From: Escherichia coli
Lineage (GTDB): Bacteria > Pseudomonadota > Gammaproteobacteria > Enterobacterales > Enterobacteriaceae
NCBI RefSeq assembly: GCF_003790525.1
Contig: NZ_CP033635.1
Reading direction: 5' to 3' (one strand)
DNA: 64,000 bases
The notes under the pieces were generated by a model. It saw only the letters and a program-made list of their open reading frames with translations. It did not search any database and was not told the origin of the DNA. The position numbers and the translations under genes are program-made. Shown in pieces: positions 1-56,987 of this stretch (position 1 is the first letter of the stretch; each line of letters opens with the position of its first letter).

Positions 1-296
<296 letters not shown>

Positions 297-498
297 CTAT
301 TCTGCATTGCCGCTAAGACTTTTCCCATCACTTCGGGGACAATATTTTTTTATCAAAACGTCGCTTTGATAGAGAGTTTTTATCAAATATGTGAATAATG
401 CAGAAAATGGCATTCTGGACTTTTCACAGGGTCTGGTTGCGCAGGTATAGTAATACTTACAGCGTATTAAAGACGTTACGGGAAGGAGTAGGTATAGA

Positions 499-1741
<1,243 letters not shown>

Positions 1742-1742
1742 A

Positions 1743-2666
1743 GTGAAAAAATTACGTATCGGCGTAGTGGGGTTAGGCGGCATCGCGCAAAAAGCGTGGT
1801 TACCGGTGCTGGCGGCAGCGTCTGACTGGACGTTACAAGGTGCGTGGTCGCCTACGCGCGCCAAAGCCCTGCCAATTTGTGACAGCTGGCGCATTCCTTA
1901 TGCTGATTCGTTATCCAGCCTTGCCGCCAGTTGCGATGCGGTTTTTGTGCATTCCAGCACCGCCAGCCACTTTGACGTGGTCAGTACGTTACTCAATGCG
2001 GGGGGACATGTCTGTGTCGATAAACCGCTGGCAGAAAATCTGCGCGATGCTGAACGGCTGGTGGAACTGGCGGCGCGGAAAAAATTGACGTTGATGGTCG
2101 GTTTTAACCGTCGTTTCGCACCACTCTACGGTGAGTTAAAAACGCAACTCGCCACCGCAGCCTCGCTAAGAATGGATAAACATCGTAGCAATAGCGTCGG
2201 GCCACACGATCTTTATTTCACGTTGCTGGATGATTATCTGCATGTGGTGGATACCGCGCTGTGGTTGTCGGGCGGTAAAGCCTCTCTGGATGGCGGTACG
2301 CTACTGACTAATGACGCTGGCGAAATGCTGTTTGCCGAGCACCATTTTTCGGCCGGTCCTTTGCAGATCACCACCTGTATGCATCGCCGTGCCGGAAGTC
2401 AGCGTGAAACCGTGCAGGCCGTGACTGACGGTGCGCTCATCGACATTACGGATATGCGCGAATGGCGTGAGGAGCGCGGGCAGGGCGTAGTGCATAAACC
2501 GATTCTTGGTTGGCAGAGTACGCTTGAGCAACGTGGATTTGTCGGCTGTGCGCGGCACTTCATTGAATGCGTGCAAAATCAGACAGTTCCGCAAACCGCC
2601 GGCGAACAGGCAGTGCTGGCGCAACGTATCGTTGACAAGATCTGGCGCGATGCGATGAGTGAATAA
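1743..2666 (+). CDS. yceM: Predicted NAD(P)-dependent oxidoreductase (Gfo/Idh/MocA family)
   Basis: GTG at 1743 directly after the yceH stop gives 307 aa; N-terminal KKLRIGVVGLGGIAQKAWLP is a Rossmann motif. Confidence 0.85.
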   Translation: MKKLRIGVVGLGGIAQKAWLPVLAAASDWTLQGAWSPTRAKALPICDSWRIPYADSLSSLAASCDAVFVHSSTASHFDVVSTLLNAGGHVCVDKPLAENLRDAERLVELAARKKLTLMVGFNRRFAPLYGELKTQLATAASLRMDKHRSNSVGPHDLYFTLLDDYLHVVDTALWLSGGKASLDGGTLLTNDAGEMLFAEHHFSAGPLQITTCMHRRAGSQRETVQAVTDGALIDITDMREWREERGQGVVHKPILGWQSTLEQRGFVGCARHFIECVQNQTVPQTAGEQAVLAQRIVDKIWRDAMSE

Positions 2667-2688
2667 ACCCTGTAACATCTGGCGGTAG

Positions 2689-4311
<1,623 letters not shown>

Positions 4312-4350
4312 CAATGCATTCCGGCCTGCAGTGCAGGCCGGAGATAATCT

Positions 4351-4767
4351 TCAGATCGAAATCTTTTTACTGCCGCGATGGGTTGTTGAGGTCTGACCGT
4401 TCGCCCCATATAGCGTCGGTTCCTGATGCGGTTTCAACATTTCCAGCGCCTGTTGATTGCGCTCAATCTGTCCTTCCAGTAACCAGCCGTTATGTTGATT
4501 CATTTGACGTAGTTGCTGCGTTTTCACAGTAATTTCCTGCCAGCGTTGACTAATATCAACGCTATTTGCTGAATTGGGTTCTTTCCTGCGTAACTGTTCG
4601 AGGTAATCCAGCGTCGCCAGCAGTGAGCTTTTTTGTTCTGTAATCCATTGCAACTGGCTGCCGTTGATCTGCCCCATTGAGAGATGTTGCTGCTCTTGAT
4701 CCATTACCGTTTTGAGATCGTTAAGCACAGCGGACATCTGGTCGAGGATCTCTGCAAGACGCGTCAT
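4351..4767 (-). CDS. flgN: Flagellar export chaperone FlgN
   Basis: 138 aa minus-strand ORF downstream of flgM; matches FlgN. Confidence 0.93.
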   Translation of the reverse strand: MTRLAEILDQMSAVLNDLKTVMDQEQQHLSMGQINGSQLQWITEQKSSLLATLDYLEQLRRKEPNSANSVDISQRWQEITVKTQQLRQMNQHNGWLLEGQIERNQQALEMLKPHQEPTLYGANGQTSTTHRGSKKISI

Positions 4768-4771
4768 ACGA

Positions 4772-5065
4772 TCAGTTACTCTGCAAGTCTTGCTGCGCTT
4801 CGTTGATCAGCGCATCGGCAATTTTGCCGGTGTCCATTTTTAGTTCACCGTTACGAATCGCCAGCTTTAACGCTTCGACACGTTCAGGATTGATATCACT
4901 GCTGCCGGGTTGCATCAGTTTTGCTTGCGCGTCGCTTAACGTCACACTGGTGCTGGTGGCGGCGGTTGTTTTTGCCGCCCGGGTATTCGTTACCGGCGCG
5001 TCAGTGGTTTCACGCGGTTGAACGGTGCTTACGGGCTTCAGAGGTGAAGTGCGGTCAATACTCAT
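4772..5065 (-). CDS. flgM: Anti-sigma-28 factor FlgM
   Basis: 97 aa minus-strand ORF; matches FlgM in length and sequence. Confidence 0.93.
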
Positions 5066-5108
5066 GGTTTATTCCTCATTGAGGGCGCTTTTATCATGTG
5101 TTGCTTAT

Positions 5109-5135
5109 TTATCGGCAAGGGACGGGTAATCTTTA
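5109..5135 (-). promoter_or_regulatory. Sigma-28 (FliA) class 3 promoter for flgMN
   Basis: Minus strand reads TAAAGATT-N11-GCCGATAA (consensus TAAAGTTT-N11-GCCGATAA), about 45 nt upstream of the flgM ATG and just downstream of the flgA stop. Confidence 0.7.
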
Positions 5136-5140
5136 ACAGC

Positions 5141-5800
5141 TTACAGGTTTATAAGAATATTCCCATCTGCATCAACAACGCCGCTGACCACCTGTCCCGA
5201 TACCATGCGCACCCGCGCATTCTGTGCGACGGCAGCATTGTTCAGCGCCTGACCTTCTGCGTTGGCGCTAAACCCATCACCGCTGGCGATCACGTTGACG
5301 CGTTGTCCCGCTTTTACCCGCCATGCCTGGCGAAACTGGGTTAACTGGATAGGTTGATCGGGTGATATATCGCGCAGGCTAACGGCATCAACAAGTTGAT
5401 TGATATCCAGCACCGTACGCGGTGGCAGGGTATCCAGCCTGCCGCGTTTCAGTTTGACATTGCCAGCTTCCAGTTTTCCTCCCCGCACAATGGGCATCGC
5501 GGCAACCACATAATTTCCTGTAGCCTGCACATTAACTTGTAAATATCGTTTGTCGTTACCGCAGCGAGCCAACACATTCACATTGCCCCACAGGCGGGAA
5601 TTATTGCTCATCGAAAGCAATGGCTGCTCGCACGGCGGTAGTAGATTGGGCGCTGTACGAATAGAAACACGAACCTCATCACTTACCCCCGCGAGCTGGG
5701 CGCTAAAAAAGGTGTGCAATTGCGATGTGAGATTGCTCGCCGCACTTAACGGACTGAACAGTATCGCGATGATCGCCACGCGACGTTTTATTGCCAGCAT
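5141..5800 (-). CDS. flgA: Flagellar P-ring assembly chaperone FlgA
   Basis: Internal Met (MLAIKRRVAIIAILFSPLSAA, signal peptide) gives 219 aa; the listed ORF extends upstream to 5863. Confidence 0.88.
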   Translation of the reverse strand: MLAIKRRVAIIAILFSPLSAASNLTSQLHTFFSAQLAGVSDEVRVSIRTAPNLLPPCEQPLLSMSNNSRLWGNVNVLARCGNDKRYLQVNVQATGNYVVAAMPIVRGGKLEAGNVKLKRGRLDTLPPRTVLDINQLVDAVSLRDISPDQPIQLTQFRQAWRVKAGQRVNVIASGDGFSANAEGQALNNAAVAQNARVRMVSGQVVSGVVDADGNILINL

Positions 5801-5955
5801 TTTCGCCCCCCAGCCATTTCTACAACGTGAATTGTACCTGTCCGCAATGACCATCAACGGCATAAATAGCGACCCATTTTGCGTTTATTCCGCCGATAAC
5901 GCGCGCGTAAAGGCATTTAAGCTGATGGCAGAATTTTGATACCTGCGGAGGAGAT
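5801..5955. promoter_or_regulatory. Divergent flgA / flgB promoter region (class 2, FlhDC-dependent by established knowledge)
   Basis: 155 bp spacer between divergent flgA and flgB starts; regulatory role assigned from known flagellar regulon architecture, sites not mapped here. Confidence 0.5.
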
Positions 5956-6372
5956 ATGCTCGATAAGCTCGACGCCGCCTTACGTTTTCAACAAGAGGCG
6001 CTCAATCTGCGCGCCCAGCGTCAGGAAGTGCTGGCAGCAAACATCGCCAATGCCGATACCCCTGGTTATCAGGCTCGCGATATCGATTTTGCCAGTGAAC
6101 TTAAAAAAGTCATGCAACGTGGACGGGATGCAACAAGTGTGGTTGCACTGACGATGACCTCAACGCAACACATTCCGGCGCAGGCGCTGACGCCTCCTAC
6201 CGCAGAACTGCAATACCGTATTCCGGACCAGCCTTCGCTTGACGGTAATACCGTCGATATGGATCGCGAACGCACCCAGTTTGCCGATAACAGCCTGCAA
6301 TACCAGATGAGCCTTAGCGCGTTGAGCGGGCAAATCAAAGGCATGATGAACGTTTTACAGAGCGGAAATTAA
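5956..6372 (+). CDS. flgB: Flagellar basal-body rod protein FlgB
   Basis: 138 aa ORF, first gene of the flgB operon; sequence match. Confidence 0.95.
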
Positions 6373-6375
6373 CGG

Positions 6376-6780
6376 ATGGCACTGCTGAATATTTTTGATA
6401 TCGCCGGTTCGGCGTTAACTGCCCAGTCCCAGCGCCTGAACGTGGCGGCCAGTAATCTGGCGAATGCTGATAGCTTGACCGGTCCCGATGGACAGCCATA
6501 TCGGGCAAAACAGGTGGTATTTCAGGTTAACGCTGCGCCAGGTGCTGCGACAGGCGGCGTAAAAGTTGCCGATGTTATAGAAAGTCAGGCCCCGGACAAA
6601 CTGGTTTATGAACCGGGTAATCCGCTGGCGGATGCAAAGGGCTACGTGAAAATGCCAAACGTTGATGTCGTCGGGGAGATGGTTAACACCATGTCGGCGT
6701 CACGCAGTTATCAGGCCAATGTTGAAGTGCTCAACACGGTGAAAAGCATGATGCTGAAAACCCTTACGCTCGGTCAATAA
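6376..6780 (+). CDS. flgC: Flagellar basal-body rod protein FlgC
   Basis: 134 aa ORF; sequence match. Confidence 0.95.
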
Positions 6781-6791
6781 AGGAGAAAGCT

Positions 6792-7487
6792 ATGTCCATT
6801 GCGGTAACAACCACCGATCCGACAAATACCGGCGTCAGCACCACCAGTAGTAGTTCGCTCACGGGCAGCAACGCCGCAGATTTACAAAGCAGTTTTCTGA
6901 CTTTGTTGGTGGCGCAGCTGAAAAACCAGGACCCGACCAATCCAATGGAAAACAACGAGCTGACGTCGCAATTGGCACAAATCAGCACGGTCAGCGGGAT
7001 TGAAAAACTCAATACCACGCTCGGATCTATTTCCGGACAGATTGATAACAGCCAGTCGTTACAGGCCAGTAACCTGATCGGTCACGGTGTGATGATCCCC
7101 GGTACCACAGTTCTTGCGGGAACCGGCAGTGATGAAGGGGCTGTGACCACGACCACGCCGTTTGGTGTTGAGCTGCAACAGGCGGCAGACAAAGTTACGG
7201 CCACCATCACCGATAAAAACGGTGCAGTTGTCCGTACCATTGATATCGGTGAACTGACTGCCGGAGTCCACAGTTTCACCTGGGACGGTACGTTGACTGA
7301 CGGCAGCACTGCGCCGAACGGTTCTTACAATGTAGCGATTAGCGCCAGTAGCGGTGGTACACAACTGGTTGCCCAGCCGCTGCAGTTTGCTCTGGTGCAG
7401 GGTGTGATCCGCGGCAACAACGGTAATACGCTGGATCTCGGCACTTACGGCACCACCACCCTCGACGAAGTACGGCAGATAATTTAA
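6792..7487 (+). CDS. flgD: Flagellar hook capping/assembly protein FlgD
   Basis: 231 aa ORF; sequence match. Confidence 0.95.
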   Translation: MSIAVTTTDPTNTGVSTTSSSSLTGSNAADLQSSFLTLLVAQLKNQDPTNPMENNELTSQLAQISTVSGIEKLNTTLGSISGQIDNSQSLQASNLIGHGVMIPGTTVLAGTGSDEGAVTTTTPFGVELQQAADKVTATITDKNGAVVRTIDIGELTAGVHSFTWDGTLTDGSTAPNGSYNVAISASSGGTQLVAQPLQFALVQGVIRGNNGNTLDLGTYGTTTLDEVRQII

Positions 7488-41394: not shown

Positions 41395-41520
<126 letters not shown>

Positions 41521-51035: not shown

Positions 51036-54284
<3,249 letters not shown>

Positions 54285-54312
54285 AGGCAGTACATTAAAA
54301 CAAGGAGCGGCA

Positions 54313-55224
54313 ATGTATTACGGGTTTGATATTGGTGGAACAAAAATTGCGCTAGGCGTGTTTGATAGCGGTCGGCAGTTGCAGTGGGAAAAGCGGGTGC
54401 CGACACCGCGTGACAGCTATGACGCATTTTTAGATGCAGTGTGTGAGCTGGTAGCTGAAGCTGACCAACGTTTTGGCTGTAAAGGCTCTGTCGGCATCGG
54501 TATTCCGGGAATGCCGGAAACAGAAGATGGTACGCTGTATGCCGCCAATGTCCCCGCTGCCAGCGGTAAACCGCTGCGTGCCGACCTGAGCGCACGTCTT
54601 GATCGCGATGTACGCCTTGATAACGATGCCAACTGTTTTGCCCTTTCAGAAGCCTGGGATGATGAATTTACTCAATATCCACTGGTGATGGGGTTGATTC
54701 TCGGCACCGGCGTTGGCGGCGGGCTGATTTTCAACGGTAAACCAATTACCGGTAAAAGCTATATTACCGGCGAATTTGGCCATATGCGTCTGCCGGTTGA
54801 TGCGTTAACCATGATGGGGCTGGATTTCCCGTTACGCCGCTGCGGCTGTGGTCAGCATGGCTGCATTGAAAATTATCTGTCTGGTCGCGGTTTTGCGTGG
54901 CTGTATCAACACTATTATCATCAACCGTTGCAGGCTCCTGAGATCATTGCGCTTTATGATCAAGGCGATGAGCAGGCAAGGGCGCACGTTGAGCGTTATC
55001 TGGATTTATTAGCGGTTTGTCTGGGAAATATCCTGACCATTGTTGACCCTGACCTGGTCGTCATTGGTGGAGGCTTATCGAATTTCCCGGCAATCACAAC
55101 GCAACTGGCGGACAGGCTGCCTCGTCATCTCTTACCTGTAGCTCGTGTTCCGCGCATTGAACGCGCGCGCCACGGTGATGCGGGGGGAATGCGTGGTGCG
55201 GCCTTCCTACATCTAACCGATTAA
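54313..55224 (+). CDS. nagK: N-acetyl-D-glucosamine kinase
   Basis: Start [17 protein letters not shown] gives 303 aa (ORF opens at 54253); ROK family. Confidence 0.92.
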
Positions 55225-55239
55225 TCAACAGAGGTTGCT

Positions 55240-56061
55240 ATGCTGTCGCGTCGGGGTCATCGGTTAAGTCGTTTTCGTAAAAATAAACGCCGCCTGCGCG
55301 AGCGTTTGCGTCAGCGTATTTTTTTCAGAGATAAAGTGGTGCCGGAAGCAATGGAAAAACCAAGAGTACTCGTACTGACAGGGGCAGGGATTTCTGCGGA
55401 ATCAGGTATTCGTACCTTTCGCGCCGCAGATGGCCTGTGGGAAGAACATCGGGTTGAAGATGTGGCAACGCCGGAAGGTTTTGATCGCGATCCTGAACTG
55501 GTGCAAGCGTTTTATAACGCCCGTCGCCGACAGCTGCAGCAGCCAGAAATTCAGCCTAACGCCGCGCATCTTGCGCTGGCTAAACTGCAAGACGCCCTCG
55601 GCGATCGCTTTTTGCTGGTGACGCAGAATATCGACAACCTTCATGAGCGTGCCGGTAACACCAATGTTATTCATATGCATGGGGAACTGCTGAAAGTTCG
55701 TTGTTCACAAAGTGGTCAGGTTCTCGACTGGACCGGAGACGTTACCCCAGAAGATAAATGCCATTGCTGCCAGTTCCCGGCACCCTTGCGACCGCACGTA
55801 GTGTGGTTTGGCGAAATGCCACTCGGCATGGATGAAATTTATATGGCGTTGTCGATGGCCGATATTTTCATTGCCATTGGTACTTCGGGGCATGTTTATC
55901 CAGCGGCTGGGTTTGTTCACGAAGCGAAACTGCATGGCGCGCACACCGTGGAACTGAATCTTGAACCAAGTCAGGTCGGTAATGAATTTGCCGAGAAATA
56001 TTACGGCCCGGCAAGCCAGGTGGTGCCAGAATTTGTTGAAAAGTTGCTGAAGGGATTATAA
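55240..56061 (+). CDS. cobB: NAD-dependent protein deacylase (sirtuin) CobB, long form
   Basis: 273 aa; Arg-rich 37-aa N-terminal extension, then [20 protein letters not shown] (internal start at 55351 would give a 236 aa short form). Confidence 0.92.
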
Positions 56062-56074
56062 AGCGGGAAAAATT

Positions 56075-56170
56075 GCCTGATGCGCTACGCTTGTCAGGCC
56101 TGTGAAGGGGCGCAATTAATTGAATTTGCAGGTTTTGTGGGCCGGATAAGGCGTTCGCGCCGCATCCGGC
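56075..56170. repeat. REP elements downstream of cobB
   Basis: gcctgatgcgctacgcttgtcaggcctg and gccggataaggcgttcgcgccgcatccggc palindromes. Confidence 0.75.
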
Positions 56171-56198
56171 ATAATACATGCGAACTTTACTGCCTCTT

Positions 56199-56987
56199 TT
56201 ACCGTTTACTCGTCCATAGTAACGCGGCAATAAACGTACAGACACCAATCAGCCCTGCCCAGAGTGGCGATATTCTGGTAATCGCAAAGCTGTTATCGAT
56301 ATACAAACATAAAGCCTGATAACCCATATTGGCAACAGCCATCGCCACTGCAAATTTTAACGCATAATAAAGGCGCGTTGTGTAGTTAAAAAATGCAGCA
56401 AAGACGATGAATGCAACTGCCCAGGCAAAAAGGCCTAATGTCGTGGTACTGCCGGGTGGATCATTTTCATGCTGTTGTCCGGGATGCGGATAATATGTCA
56501 GTGGCGGCGTCGGTTGTTTTAATATCTGTGCTTGTAAAACAGCCAATGCATTATTGATTCCCTGATACCAGAGATCTGCATGTAAATAAGCCAGAGTGTG
56601 ATTTTCTACCAGAAGGCCGAGATGTTTATCGTCCATACTGCTTTCGACCTGGCCGTTGGTTATCATAATTAACCGTGGCTCGCGGGTAGTAAAGAGTAAC
56701 AGAATACTTCCTTTTACATTACTCATTGAAGATGCCGCATGCGCCAGCATCGCTTTGCCATTTTGCCTGAGACTGGCTTCATTATTAATGTCGGGTAAAA
56801 CCACAATAAACGGTACAACTCCGGTTTGTTGGCGAAAAAGTTCGGCTTTATGCGCGATCTCTTCAGCATCTGGTACAGTACCGGTAACATCCGTAAAAAG
56901 TGTCTTCATTATTGGAATTAAGGGCTTACTGATTGCCGTCAGAGGCAGGAACATCAGTAAACTGAGCAGTATCATGATTTTTTTCAT
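56199..56987 (-). CDS. ycfZ: Inner-membrane protein YcfZ
   Basis: 262 aa with signal/transmembrane regions. Confidence 0.88.

What the first reader, a model, noticed from the sequence alone, without database searches (positions are those of the whole stretch)
55240..55353. cobB has an Arg-rich N-terminal extension and an internal alternative start
The longest cobB ORF begins [37 protein letters not shown], a strongly basic segment, before the conserved sirtuin start [20 protein letters not shown] at 55351. Two CobB isoforms from alternative starts are described in enterobacteria. The basic tail resembles a nucleic-acid or membrane binding segment and would localise or regulate the long isoform differently from the short one.
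Basis: partly seen in the sequence, partly recalled or inferred. Interest (0 to 1): 0.3.

Follow-up and report, generated by a model that had tools for sequence, protein, structure and literature searches.

The report
Known long and short CobB isoforms
This is the ordinary E. coli cobB sirtuin gene, whose arginine-rich 37-residue N-terminal extension and second in-frame start codon are real, but both protein forms and the polyanion-binding, regulatory role of the extension are already published for E. coli and Salmonella.

Summary
The cobB ORF runs 55240-56061 (+) and encodes 273 aa. ATG1 is at 55240 and an in-frame ATG2 (Met38) is at 55351. The 37 residues between them hold 12 Arg and 3 Lys.

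[quoted passage not shown] They were then shown in E. coli (Umehara 2018, PMC6209979; NAR 2026, PMC12926920). Only CobB-L binds c-di-GMP, polyphosphate and dsDNA. c-di-GMP and polyphosphate inhibit it.

My own tests agree:
- Residues 1-30 are conserved as protein across Enterobacteriaceae (84% identity) while synonymous sites vary freely.
- ATG1 has a good Shine-Dalgarno sequence. ATG2 has a weak one but sits in the least structured stretch of the cobB mRNA.
- Most other sirtuins begin where CobB-S begins.

One small addition: Klebsiella aerogenes, two Raoultella species and one distant lineage keep the extension but have no ATG at that position. The long form therefore looks like the constant one. 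Membrane binding is not supported. Novelty: already known. Interest is low.

The parts
54893..54921 (+). Candidate promoter inside nagK for the cobB-L transcript: -35 TTGCGT, 17-nt spacer, -10 TATCAT
   Evidence: My loose hexamer scan gives 8 of 12 matches at -347..-319 relative to ATG1. This is the interval BPROM predicted in Umehara 2018, inside their experimentally bounded region -417..-30. The window is identical to the K-12 lineage across -347..-319. It falls below the threshold of the stricter consensus scan.
55231..55235 (+). Shine-Dalgarno sequence (GAGGT) for ATG1
   Evidence: Duplex with the 16S 3' end is -6.5 kcal/mol with a 4-nt gap to ATG1 (55236-55239). About 6% of random window positions reach -6 or better. 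An equivalent SD of -5.8 to -9.4 is present in all 10 other orthologues read.
55240..56061 (+). cobB long ORF (CobB-L, 273 aa, TAA stop at 56059-56061)
   Evidence: ORF. Annotated as cobB in RefSeq. NCBIfam NF001755 equivalog scores 597.9 bits against a cut-off of 318 and covers aa 1-272.
55240..55329 (+). Conserved basic module, aa 1-30 (M[LQ]SRRxHRLSRFR[RK][15 protein letters not shown])
   Evidence: Mean pairwise amino-acid identity across 9 orthologues from 8 Enterobacteriaceae genera is 84%, against 87.5% for the core. Synonymous diversity in the extension (codons 1-37) equals that of the core: 0.49 vs 0.47, p = 0.87. The module is present in all 120 closest homologues, one of them starting 10 residues in. 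AlphaFold predicts a helix at 2-28 with low confidence, pLDDT 51-60. It contains R8, R17 and E21, which are needed for c-di-GMP binding.
55330..55350 (+). Variable linker, aa 31-37
   Evidence: 49% pairwise identity, with length varying by a few residues between genera. pLDDT is below 50 for aa 28-36.
55290..55322 (+). Interval predicted to hold the internal promoter for the cobB-S transcript (+51..+83). The experimentally bounded interval is +1..+111, i.e. 55240-55350.
   Evidence: Umehara 2018: plasmids carrying only 30 nt of upstream sequence, or only the cobB-L ORF, still made CobB-S. The cobB-S ORF alone made nothing. The window is identical to the K-12 lineage over +1..+149. No near-consensus sigma-70 site is found here, so the exact hexamers are not settled.
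55351..55353 (+). ATG2 (Met38), start of CobB-S (236 aa in this strain)
   Evidence: Its SD is weak, -3.6 kcal/mol. Met is kept at this position in 113 of the 120 closest homologues.
55321..55381 (+). Unstructured mRNA stretch around ATG2
   Evidence: The -30..+30 window has an MFE of -6.5 kcal/mol, against a cobB mean of -13.9 with sd 3.5. All eight least structured windows of the gene centre on codons 34-42. For the 81-nt window, z = +2.08 against dinucleotide shuffles. The same low structure, in the least structured 2-13% of the gene, is seen in all 7 orthologues with ATG2. The only two AGA Arg codons of the gene, codons 30 and 42, flank it.
55351..56058 (+). Sirtuin catalytic core shared by both isoforms
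   Evidence: Pfam SIR2 covers aa 48-221, E = 4.3e-54. Identical to the E. coli CobB crystal structures 1S5P and 6RXJ over the aligned residues, aa 39/40-273.

Best explanation
This is the E. coli cobB gene, which makes two active NAD+-dependent protein deacylases from one reading frame.

CobB-L (273 aa here) starts at ATG1 (55240). It is translated from a nagK-cobB message or from a promoter inside nagK, and uses a normal Shine-Dalgarno sequence. CobB-S (236 aa) starts at ATG2 (55351). It is translated from a short message whose promoter lies within the first 111 nt of cobB, and ATG2 sits in an A-rich, unstructured stretch with only a weak Shine-Dalgarno sequence.

The extra 37 residues are a conserved 30-residue arginine-rich, probably helical module plus a variable 7-residue linker. 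They act as a regulatory handle carried by CobB-L only. They bind polyanions and anionic ligands (polyphosphate, dsDNA, c-di-GMP), promote self-association, and carry the N-terminus that YiaC/NatA acetylates. c-di-GMP, polyphosphate and N-terminal acetylation each lower CobB-L activity and leave CobB-S untouched.

What is shown by published experiment: the two proteins, the two promoter intervals, ligand binding and inhibition. What is shown here: the anatomy, protein-level purifying selection on the extension, the unstructured initiation region, and the distribution across taxa. What is inferred: that the K-12 results carry over to this strain, based on identical sequence over the -347..-319 promoter candidate and over +1..+149, and an identical protein apart from K-12's six extra C-terminal residues. 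The window differs from K-12 at seven other positions within -417..-1.
For: Anatomy.

Published experiments:
- Two isoforms and two promoter intervals in E. coli (PMC6209979).
[quoted passage not shown] - Salmonella CobB-L is oligomeric and CobB-S is monomeric (PMC10965786).
- N-terminal acetylation of CobB-L by YiaC/NatA impairs its activity (reviews).

Tests run here:
- aa 1-30 are 84% identical across genera while synonymous diversity equals the core's (0.49 vs 0.47, p = 0.87). The extension is therefore translated and under purifying selection as protein.
- SD1 is -6.5 kcal/mol and conserved. SD2 is weak and not conserved.
- The ATG2 region is the least structured part of the mRNA in E. 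coli, and lies in the least structured 2-13% in all 7 orthologues that have ATG2.
- The extension-coding region is present in 5425 of 5426 complete E. coli genomes at 95% identity or more.
- The window differs from K-12 cobB by 22 synonymous and 0 non-synonymous changes, none within +1..+149.
- Most sirtuin representatives at 66% identity or less start at the CobB-S position.
Against: - No near-consensus sigma-70 promoter appears anywhere in 54200-56300 with the simple scan. Looser candidates in the +1..+111 interval reach only 7 of 12 matches. The internal promoter therefore rests on the plasmid experiments, not on sequence.
- Synonymous sites in the extension-coding region show no extra constraint that would betray an embedded promoter.
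- An earlier reporter study cited by Umehara found no promoter activity in -400..+151 of cobB.
- The primary Salmonella papers (Tucker 2010, Parks 2020) are not held and were read only through citing papers.
- The measured c-di-GMP and DNA affinities are modest. The authors of the c-di-GMP study raise the in-vitro Kd and Ki as a concern for their own model.
Confidence: 0.9

Rival explanations
1. Both isoforms arise by alternative translation initiation on the same long nagK-cobB mRNA. Ribosomes load internally at the unstructured ATG2 region, and the internal promoter contributes little in the chromosome.
For: ATG2 lies in the least structured stretch of the cobB mRNA, and this is conserved where ATG2 exists. 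No near-consensus promoter is seen inside cobB, and there is no extra synonymous constraint there. An earlier reporter study found no promoter activity in -400..+151 (cited).
Against: A plasmid carrying only the cobB-L ORF with no upstream promoter still produced CobB-S but no CobB-L. A plasmid carrying only the cobB-S ORF produced nothing. This places a promoter in +1..+111. In Salmonella the two isoforms' transcripts were reported to start at two different sites, and Umehara equates the nagK and cobB promoters with Salmonella P2 and P3. The two routes do not exclude each other.
Confidence: 0.25
2. Only ATG1 is used, and the short protein is a proteolytic product of CobB-L, cut in the disordered linker at aa 31-37.
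For: The linker is variable and predicted to be disordered. Arg-rich tails are protease-sensitive (general knowledge). SD2 is weak.
Against: CobB-S is made from constructs that make no detectable CobB-L. Met is kept at position 38 in 113 of 120 close homologues although the surrounding linker is only 49% conserved. The mRNA is unstructured exactly at ATG2.
Confidence: 0.04
3. The extension is a mis-called start. Only ATG2 is a true start and 55240-55350 is untranslated leader.
For: Most sirtuins start at the ATG2 position. All crystal structures omit the tail.
Against: aa 1-30 are 84% identical across genera while synonymous sites are as variable as in the core. The frame is open with a conserved ATG and SD in all 120 close homologues and all 11 loci read. 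Lineages with no ATG at position 38 keep the extension. Published westerns show the 31.5 kDa form.
Confidence: 0.01
4. The basic tail is chiefly a membrane-targeting amphipathic helix that localises CobB-L to the inner membrane.
For: Hydrophobic residues L2, L9, F12, L19, L23 and I27 fall within a 100-degree arc of a helical wheel. Basic amphipathic helices bind anionic lipids (general knowledge).
Against: The hydrophobic moment of aa 2-31 is 0.205, below the shuffle mean of 0.254; 61% of shuffles are equal or higher. Arg residues lie all round the helix. No held paper reports membrane association. The demonstrated partners are soluble polyanions and c-di-GMP.
Confidence: 0.05

Closest known systems
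Salmonella enterica CobB-L / CobB-S (Tucker & Escalante-Semerena 2010, J Bacteriol 192:6200)
   Same: The architecture matches: 273 and 236 aa forms that differ by a 37-residue extension. Umehara describes the E. coli extension (15 basic, 13 hydrophobic residues) as similar to the Salmonella one. Both forms are active, and the transcripts start at separate sites, with promoters within nagK (ycfX) and within cobB.
   Different: It is a different species. The primary paper could not be read here, so details such as the mapped 5' ends come from citing papers.
E. coli K-12 CobB (UniProt-style 279 aa; isoforms shown by Umehara 2018 and by the NAR 2026 polyP paper)
   Same: Identical protein over aa 1-273. 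Identical DNA over +1..+149 and over the nagK promoter candidate. Same gene order.
   Different: The window has one extra T after codon 273 (GGATTA-T-AAAG). This gives an immediate TAA stop and a 273-aa protein lacking the K-12 C-terminal KAGSIA. There are 22 synonymous differences.
Eukaryotic sirtuin N-terminal extensions and isoforms (e.g. SIRT1, SIRT2, SIRT3, SIRT5)
   Same: A conserved catalytic core carries lineage-specific terminal extensions. These serve as autoregulatory segments, ligand or nucleic-acid binding sites, localisation signals and sites of modification (review PMC8556138).
   Different: The eukaryotic isoforms come from splicing or processing rather than an internal promoter and start codon. 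The extensions are not homologous: the NTD has no Pfam or PDB match.
Arginine-rich motif (ARM) helical peptides such as HIV Rev 34-50
   Same: From memory, the stretch [11 protein letters not shown] resembles Rev RRWRERQRQI. Both are Arg-rich and predicted or known to be helical. This is a lead only.
   Different: Not tested here. RNA binding by CobB-L is not reported in the papers read. Similarity between low-complexity Arg-rich peptides is easily due to chance, and a search of PDB sequences with the NTD found nothing at E <= 10.

Membership tests
Sir2/sirtuin family (Pfam PF02146) | Significant match to the SIR2 domain profile | tested here: met
   183.6 bits against a cut-off of 24, E = 4.3e-54, aa 48-221 covering profile positions 1-180 of 180.
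Sir2/sirtuin family (Pfam PF02146) | NAD-binding GAGIS motif, catalytic His and zinc-ribbon cysteines | tested here: met
   G48, G50 and S52 are invariant. H147 is nearly invariant. C155, C174 and C177 are invariant in the 85-sequence alignment. The sequence is identical to the solved E. coli CobB 1S5P over aa 40-273.
Enterobacterial long CobB (NCBIfam NF001755, equivalog) | Full-length score above the curated cut-off, including the N-terminal extension | tested here: met
   597.9 bits against a cut-off of 318, aa 1-272 on profile positions 1-272 of 278. The 37-aa extension alone matches profile positions 1-36 with E = 8.9e-12.
CobB two-isoform system (CobB-L/CobB-S) | About 37-residue basic extension followed by an in-frame Met at the edge of the catalytic core | tested here: met
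   15 basic residues in 37, with Met38 at 55351.
CobB two-isoform system (CobB-L/CobB-S) | Promoter inside nagK for the long form and inside cobB +1..+111 for the short form | tested here: inconclusive
   The sequence is identical to the K-12 lineage over the BPROM-predicted promoter intervals and over +1..+149. Only weak hexamer matches are found: 8 of 12 at 54893-54921 and at most 7 of 12 inside cobB. The stricter scan finds nothing. Promoter activity is published for K-12 and cannot be measured here.
CobB two-isoform system (CobB-L/CobB-S) | Two proteins of about 31 and 27 kDa detected in vivo, each dependent on its own start | not testable with these tools
   Published for E. coli DH10B and MG1655. 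Indirect support here comes from the unstructured mRNA at ATG2.
Membrane-targeting amphipathic helix | Helical hydrophobic moment clearly above that expected from composition | tested here: not met
   muH of aa 2-31 is 0.205. The shuffle mean is 0.254 with sd 0.127, and 61% of shuffles are equal or higher.
Arginine-rich-motif RNA-binding peptides | Specific RNA binding by the isolated basic helix | not tested
   The resemblance to the Rev ARM is recalled from memory. There is no PDB or Pfam match to the NTD. Only DNA, polyP and c-di-GMP binding are published.

The most novel reading that the evidence does not exclude
CobB-L, not CobB-S, is the constant product of this gene family, and the short form is a lineage-variable add-on. 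The 30-residue module is kept at 84% identity in all 120 close homologues and in a 60%-identical lineage. The ATG at position 38 is absent in Klebsiella aerogenes (ATA, 14 of 14 cluster members Ile), Raoultella ornithinolytica (GTA), R. planticola (GGA) and the distant P0121 lineage (GGT). Such tight sequence conservation is more than generic polyanion binding needs. It suggests a specific, still unidentified partner or an intramolecular docking site, for example an ARM-like RNA-binding helix or a +12 tail folding back on the -12 core as an autoinhibitor that ligands release or lock.
Probability: 0.25. Interest if true: 0.35.

Novelty: already known. Interest (0 to 1): 0.1.

Why it matters
CobB is the main protein deacetylase of E. 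coli. Because the extension is carried by only one of its two forms, part of the cell's deacetylase activity can be switched off by c-di-GMP, polyphosphate or N-terminal acetylation while the rest stays constitutive. That links acetylation control to biofilm signalling and starvation. All of this is published, so the finding adds nothing new for a specialist. What this check contributes is confirmation that the strain in the window carries the standard system. It also shows that the extension is more universally conserved than the internal start.

Tried and rejected
- A strict sigma-70 consensus scan of 54200-56300 found no promoter. A looser scan recovered the published nagK candidate but nothing convincing inside cobB.
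- I looked for extra synonymous-site constraint in the extension-coding DNA, as an embedded promoter might impose. There is none: 0.49 vs 0.47, p = 0.87.
- The amphipathic-helix (membrane) reading was tested with the hydrophobic moment against shuffles and is not supported.
- The NTD alone has no match in PDB sequences or Pfam.
- AlphaFold gives only a low-confidence free helix for aa 2-28, so it says nothing reliable about docking on the core.
- The primary papers PMC2981217 and PMC7354945 are not held.
- A search for cobB in retapamulin initiation-profiling papers returned nothing relevant.
- A short-query BLAST around the stop codon could not give clean counts of 273-aa versus 279-aa alleles in E. 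coli.

Full report
**What is there.** The window around the finding is the E. coli lolE-nagK-cobB-ycfZ-ymfA region. It is 100% identical over 1.1 kb to strain AR_0077 and 96-97% identical to most other E. coli. The cobB ORF runs 55240-56061 on the + strand and encodes 273 aa. ATG1 is at 55240, 15 nt after the nagK stop. An in-frame ATG2 (Met38) is at 55351.

The 37 residues between the two ATGs hold 12 Arg and 3 Lys, with net charge +12. The 236-residue core has net charge -12. At the core's composition such Arg enrichment has a probability of 1.7e-7. An in-frame ATG near the start of a gene is not unusual by itself, with about 78% chance within 59 codons. This one, however, sits exactly at the edge of the catalytic core:
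- Pfam SIR2 covers aa 48-221.
- The E. coli CobB crystal structures begin at aa 39/40.
- 100 of 128 sirtuin cluster representatives with a recognisable GAGIS motif have at most 15 residues ahead of this point, 76 of them at most 5.

**What is published.** The finding restates established biology.
- Reviews and later papers attribute the discovery of two active isoforms (273 and 236 aa) in Salmonella enterica to Tucker & Escalante-Semerena 2010. Their transcripts start at separate sites. The primary paper is not held.
- In E. coli, Umehara et al. [quoted passage not shown] Deletion constructs placed the CobB-L promoter at -417..-30, inside nagK, and the CobB-S promoter at +1..+111, inside cobB.
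- A 2026 NAR paper (PMC12926920) detected both forms in MG1655, at 31.5 and 26.7 kDa. It showed that only CobB-L binds polyphosphate and dsDNA (KD 6.4 uM for DNA). [quoted passage not shown] The authors attribute this to the Arg-rich extension.
- Xu et al. (bioRxiv 10.1101/362293) showed that residues 1-37, and specifically R8, R17 and E21, are needed for c-di-GMP binding and inhibition. They also showed that the tail mediates dimerisation.
- Beura et al. 2024 (PMC10965786) found Salmonella CobB-L to be oligomeric and CobB-S monomeric.
- Parks & Escalante-Semerena 2020, known here through reviews, showed that YiaC/NatA acetylates the N-terminus of CobB-L and lowers its activity.

**Independent tests: translation signals.** ATG1 has a good Shine-Dalgarno sequence, GAGGU at -6.5 kcal/mol. 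Only about 6% of random positions reach -6 or better, and the SD is conserved in all 10 other orthologous loci read. ATG2 has only a weak SD-like match (-3.6), and it is not conserved. ATG2 does lie in the least structured part of the cobB mRNA. The -30..+30 window folds at -6.5 kcal/mol against a gene mean of -13.9 with sd 3.5, and all eight least structured windows centre on codons 34-42. An 81-nt window has z = +2.08 against dinucleotide shuffles. In all seven orthologues that have ATG at this position, the window is among the least structured 2-13% of the gene. In the four without ATG the figure is 12-48%. This is suggestive, but the sample is small. The only two AGA arginine codons of the 24 Arg codons in the gene are codons 30 and 42, on either side of ATG2, and AGA is kept in most genera.

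**Independent tests: selection on the extension.** In a codon alignment of nine orthologues from eight Enterobacteriaceae genera, aa 1-30 are 84% identical pairwise. The core is 87.5% identical and the linker (aa 31-37) 49%. Synonymous diversity at invariant codons is the same in the extension as in the core: 0.49 vs 0.47, Mann-Whitney p = 0.87. The extension is therefore translated and under purifying selection as a protein. This rules out a mis-called start. The same result gives no sign of an additional nucleotide-level constraint from an embedded promoter.

**Independent tests: promoters.** A strict sigma-70 consensus scan finds nothing in 54200-56300. A looser scan recovers TTGCGT-17-TATCAT at 54893-54921. 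That is exactly the -347..-319 interval predicted by Umehara, and it is identical in the window and the K-12 lineage. Inside cobB only matches of 7 of 12 or fewer exist. The internal promoter therefore rests on the plasmid experiments. The window is identical to K-12 across +1..+149, so those experiments should carry over.

**Independent tests: structure.** AlphaFold2 with an 85-sequence alignment models the core with high confidence. It gives aa 2-28 as a free helix with pLDDT 51-60 and aa 28-36 below 50. Hydrophobic residues line one narrow arc of that helix, but the hydrophobic moment does not exceed that of shuffles. The membrane-binding alternative therefore gains no support. The extension alone has no PDB or Pfam match. 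NCBI's equivalog NF001755 does model it: the full-length protein scores 597.9 bits against a cut-off of 318, and the extension alone matches with E = 8.9e-12.

**Distribution across taxa.** All 120 closest homologues (82% identity or more, Enterobacteriaceae) carry the extension. Among representatives clustered at 50% identity, only one further lineage has a homologous basic extension. This is P0121/P0138, 60% identical, in a lolCDE-cobB-roxA-phoQP context without nagK. The rest start at the CobB-S position. The short architecture is thus ancestral for sirtuins, and the extension is an addition specific to Enterobacterales. Within E. coli the extension-coding region is present in 5425 of 5426 complete genomes at 95% identity or more.

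The internal ATG is less universal than the extension. Seven of the 120 homologues have I, V, L or G at that position:
- Raoultella ornithinolytica has GTA.
- R. planticola has GGA.
- Klebsiella aerogenes has ATA, and all 14 K. aerogenes cluster members read have Ile there.
- The distant P0121 lineage has Gly (GGT).

A review states, citing Umehara 2018, that the two isoforms may be conserved in enterobacteria except the genus Erwinia. The K. aerogenes and Raoultella cases extend that pattern. They suggest that CobB-L is the constant form.

**Verdict.** The most likely mechanism (confidence about 0.9) is two promoters and two start codons that give a regulatable long form and a constitutive short form. 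The extension acts as a binding handle for polyanions and c-di-GMP, drives self-association, and is the site of N-terminal acetylation. The remaining open point is how much CobB-S comes from the internal promoter and how much from internal ribosome loading on the long mRNA. These tools cannot settle that. Interest is low (0.1). The most novel reading left open is a specific partner or an autoinhibitory docking role for the highly conserved 30-residue module, with CobB-S as a dispensable add-on. I rate that at about 0.25 probability and of modest interest.

Noticed in passing
window 56056-56061: Compared with the K-12 lineage the window has one extra T (GGATTA-T-AAAGCGGG vs GGATTAAAAGCGGG). This creates a TAA stop directly after codon 273, so CobB lacks the six C-terminal residues KAGSIA of the 279-aa K-12 protein. 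Other Enterobacteriaceae homologues are 272-275 aa and their consensus ends ..KGL, so the 273-aa form looks like the usual one and the K-12 tail the derived one. Both lengths are common in the protein collection.
   Followed up: partly
window 55327-55329 and 55363-65: The only two AGA (rare) arginine codons among the 24 Arg codons of cobB are codons 30 and 42, flanking ATG2. AGA is kept at these positions in most other genera that have Arg there. This fits selection for an A-rich, unstructured initiation region, but it was not tested statistically.
   Followed up: partly
L011 (Klebsiella aerogenes-type), L007 and L010 (Raoultella), L003 (P0121 lineage), codon aligned with window 55351: The extension is intact but the internal start codon is ATA, GTA, GGA and GGT respectively. 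All 14 K. aerogenes cluster members read have Ile there. Raoultella has an in-frame GTG two codons upstream, preceded by AAGG, which might substitute.
   Followed up: partly
window 56074-56107 and 56141-56171: REP-like imperfect palindromes (e.g. GCCGGATAAGGCG / CGCCGCATCCGGC) lie in the cobB-ycfZ intergenic region. Related copies are at 41446 and 43120 in the window. They explain the multiple BLAST places per genome.
   Followed up: partly
L003 (distant lineage P0121), 1-6837: In the 60%-identical lineage that also has a basic extension, cobB follows lolCDE directly with no nagK between them. It is followed by a JmjC/RoxA-like gene and phoQ-phoP. A nagK-internal promoter therefore cannot drive the long form there. 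The taxon could not be named.
   Followed up: no
window 54253-55224: The mechanical ORF list gives nagK a TTG start at 54253 (323 aa). RefSeq annotates a 303-aa NagK, which corresponds to the ATG at 54313 in window coordinates. This is only a start-codon artefact of the ORF finder.
   Followed up: no
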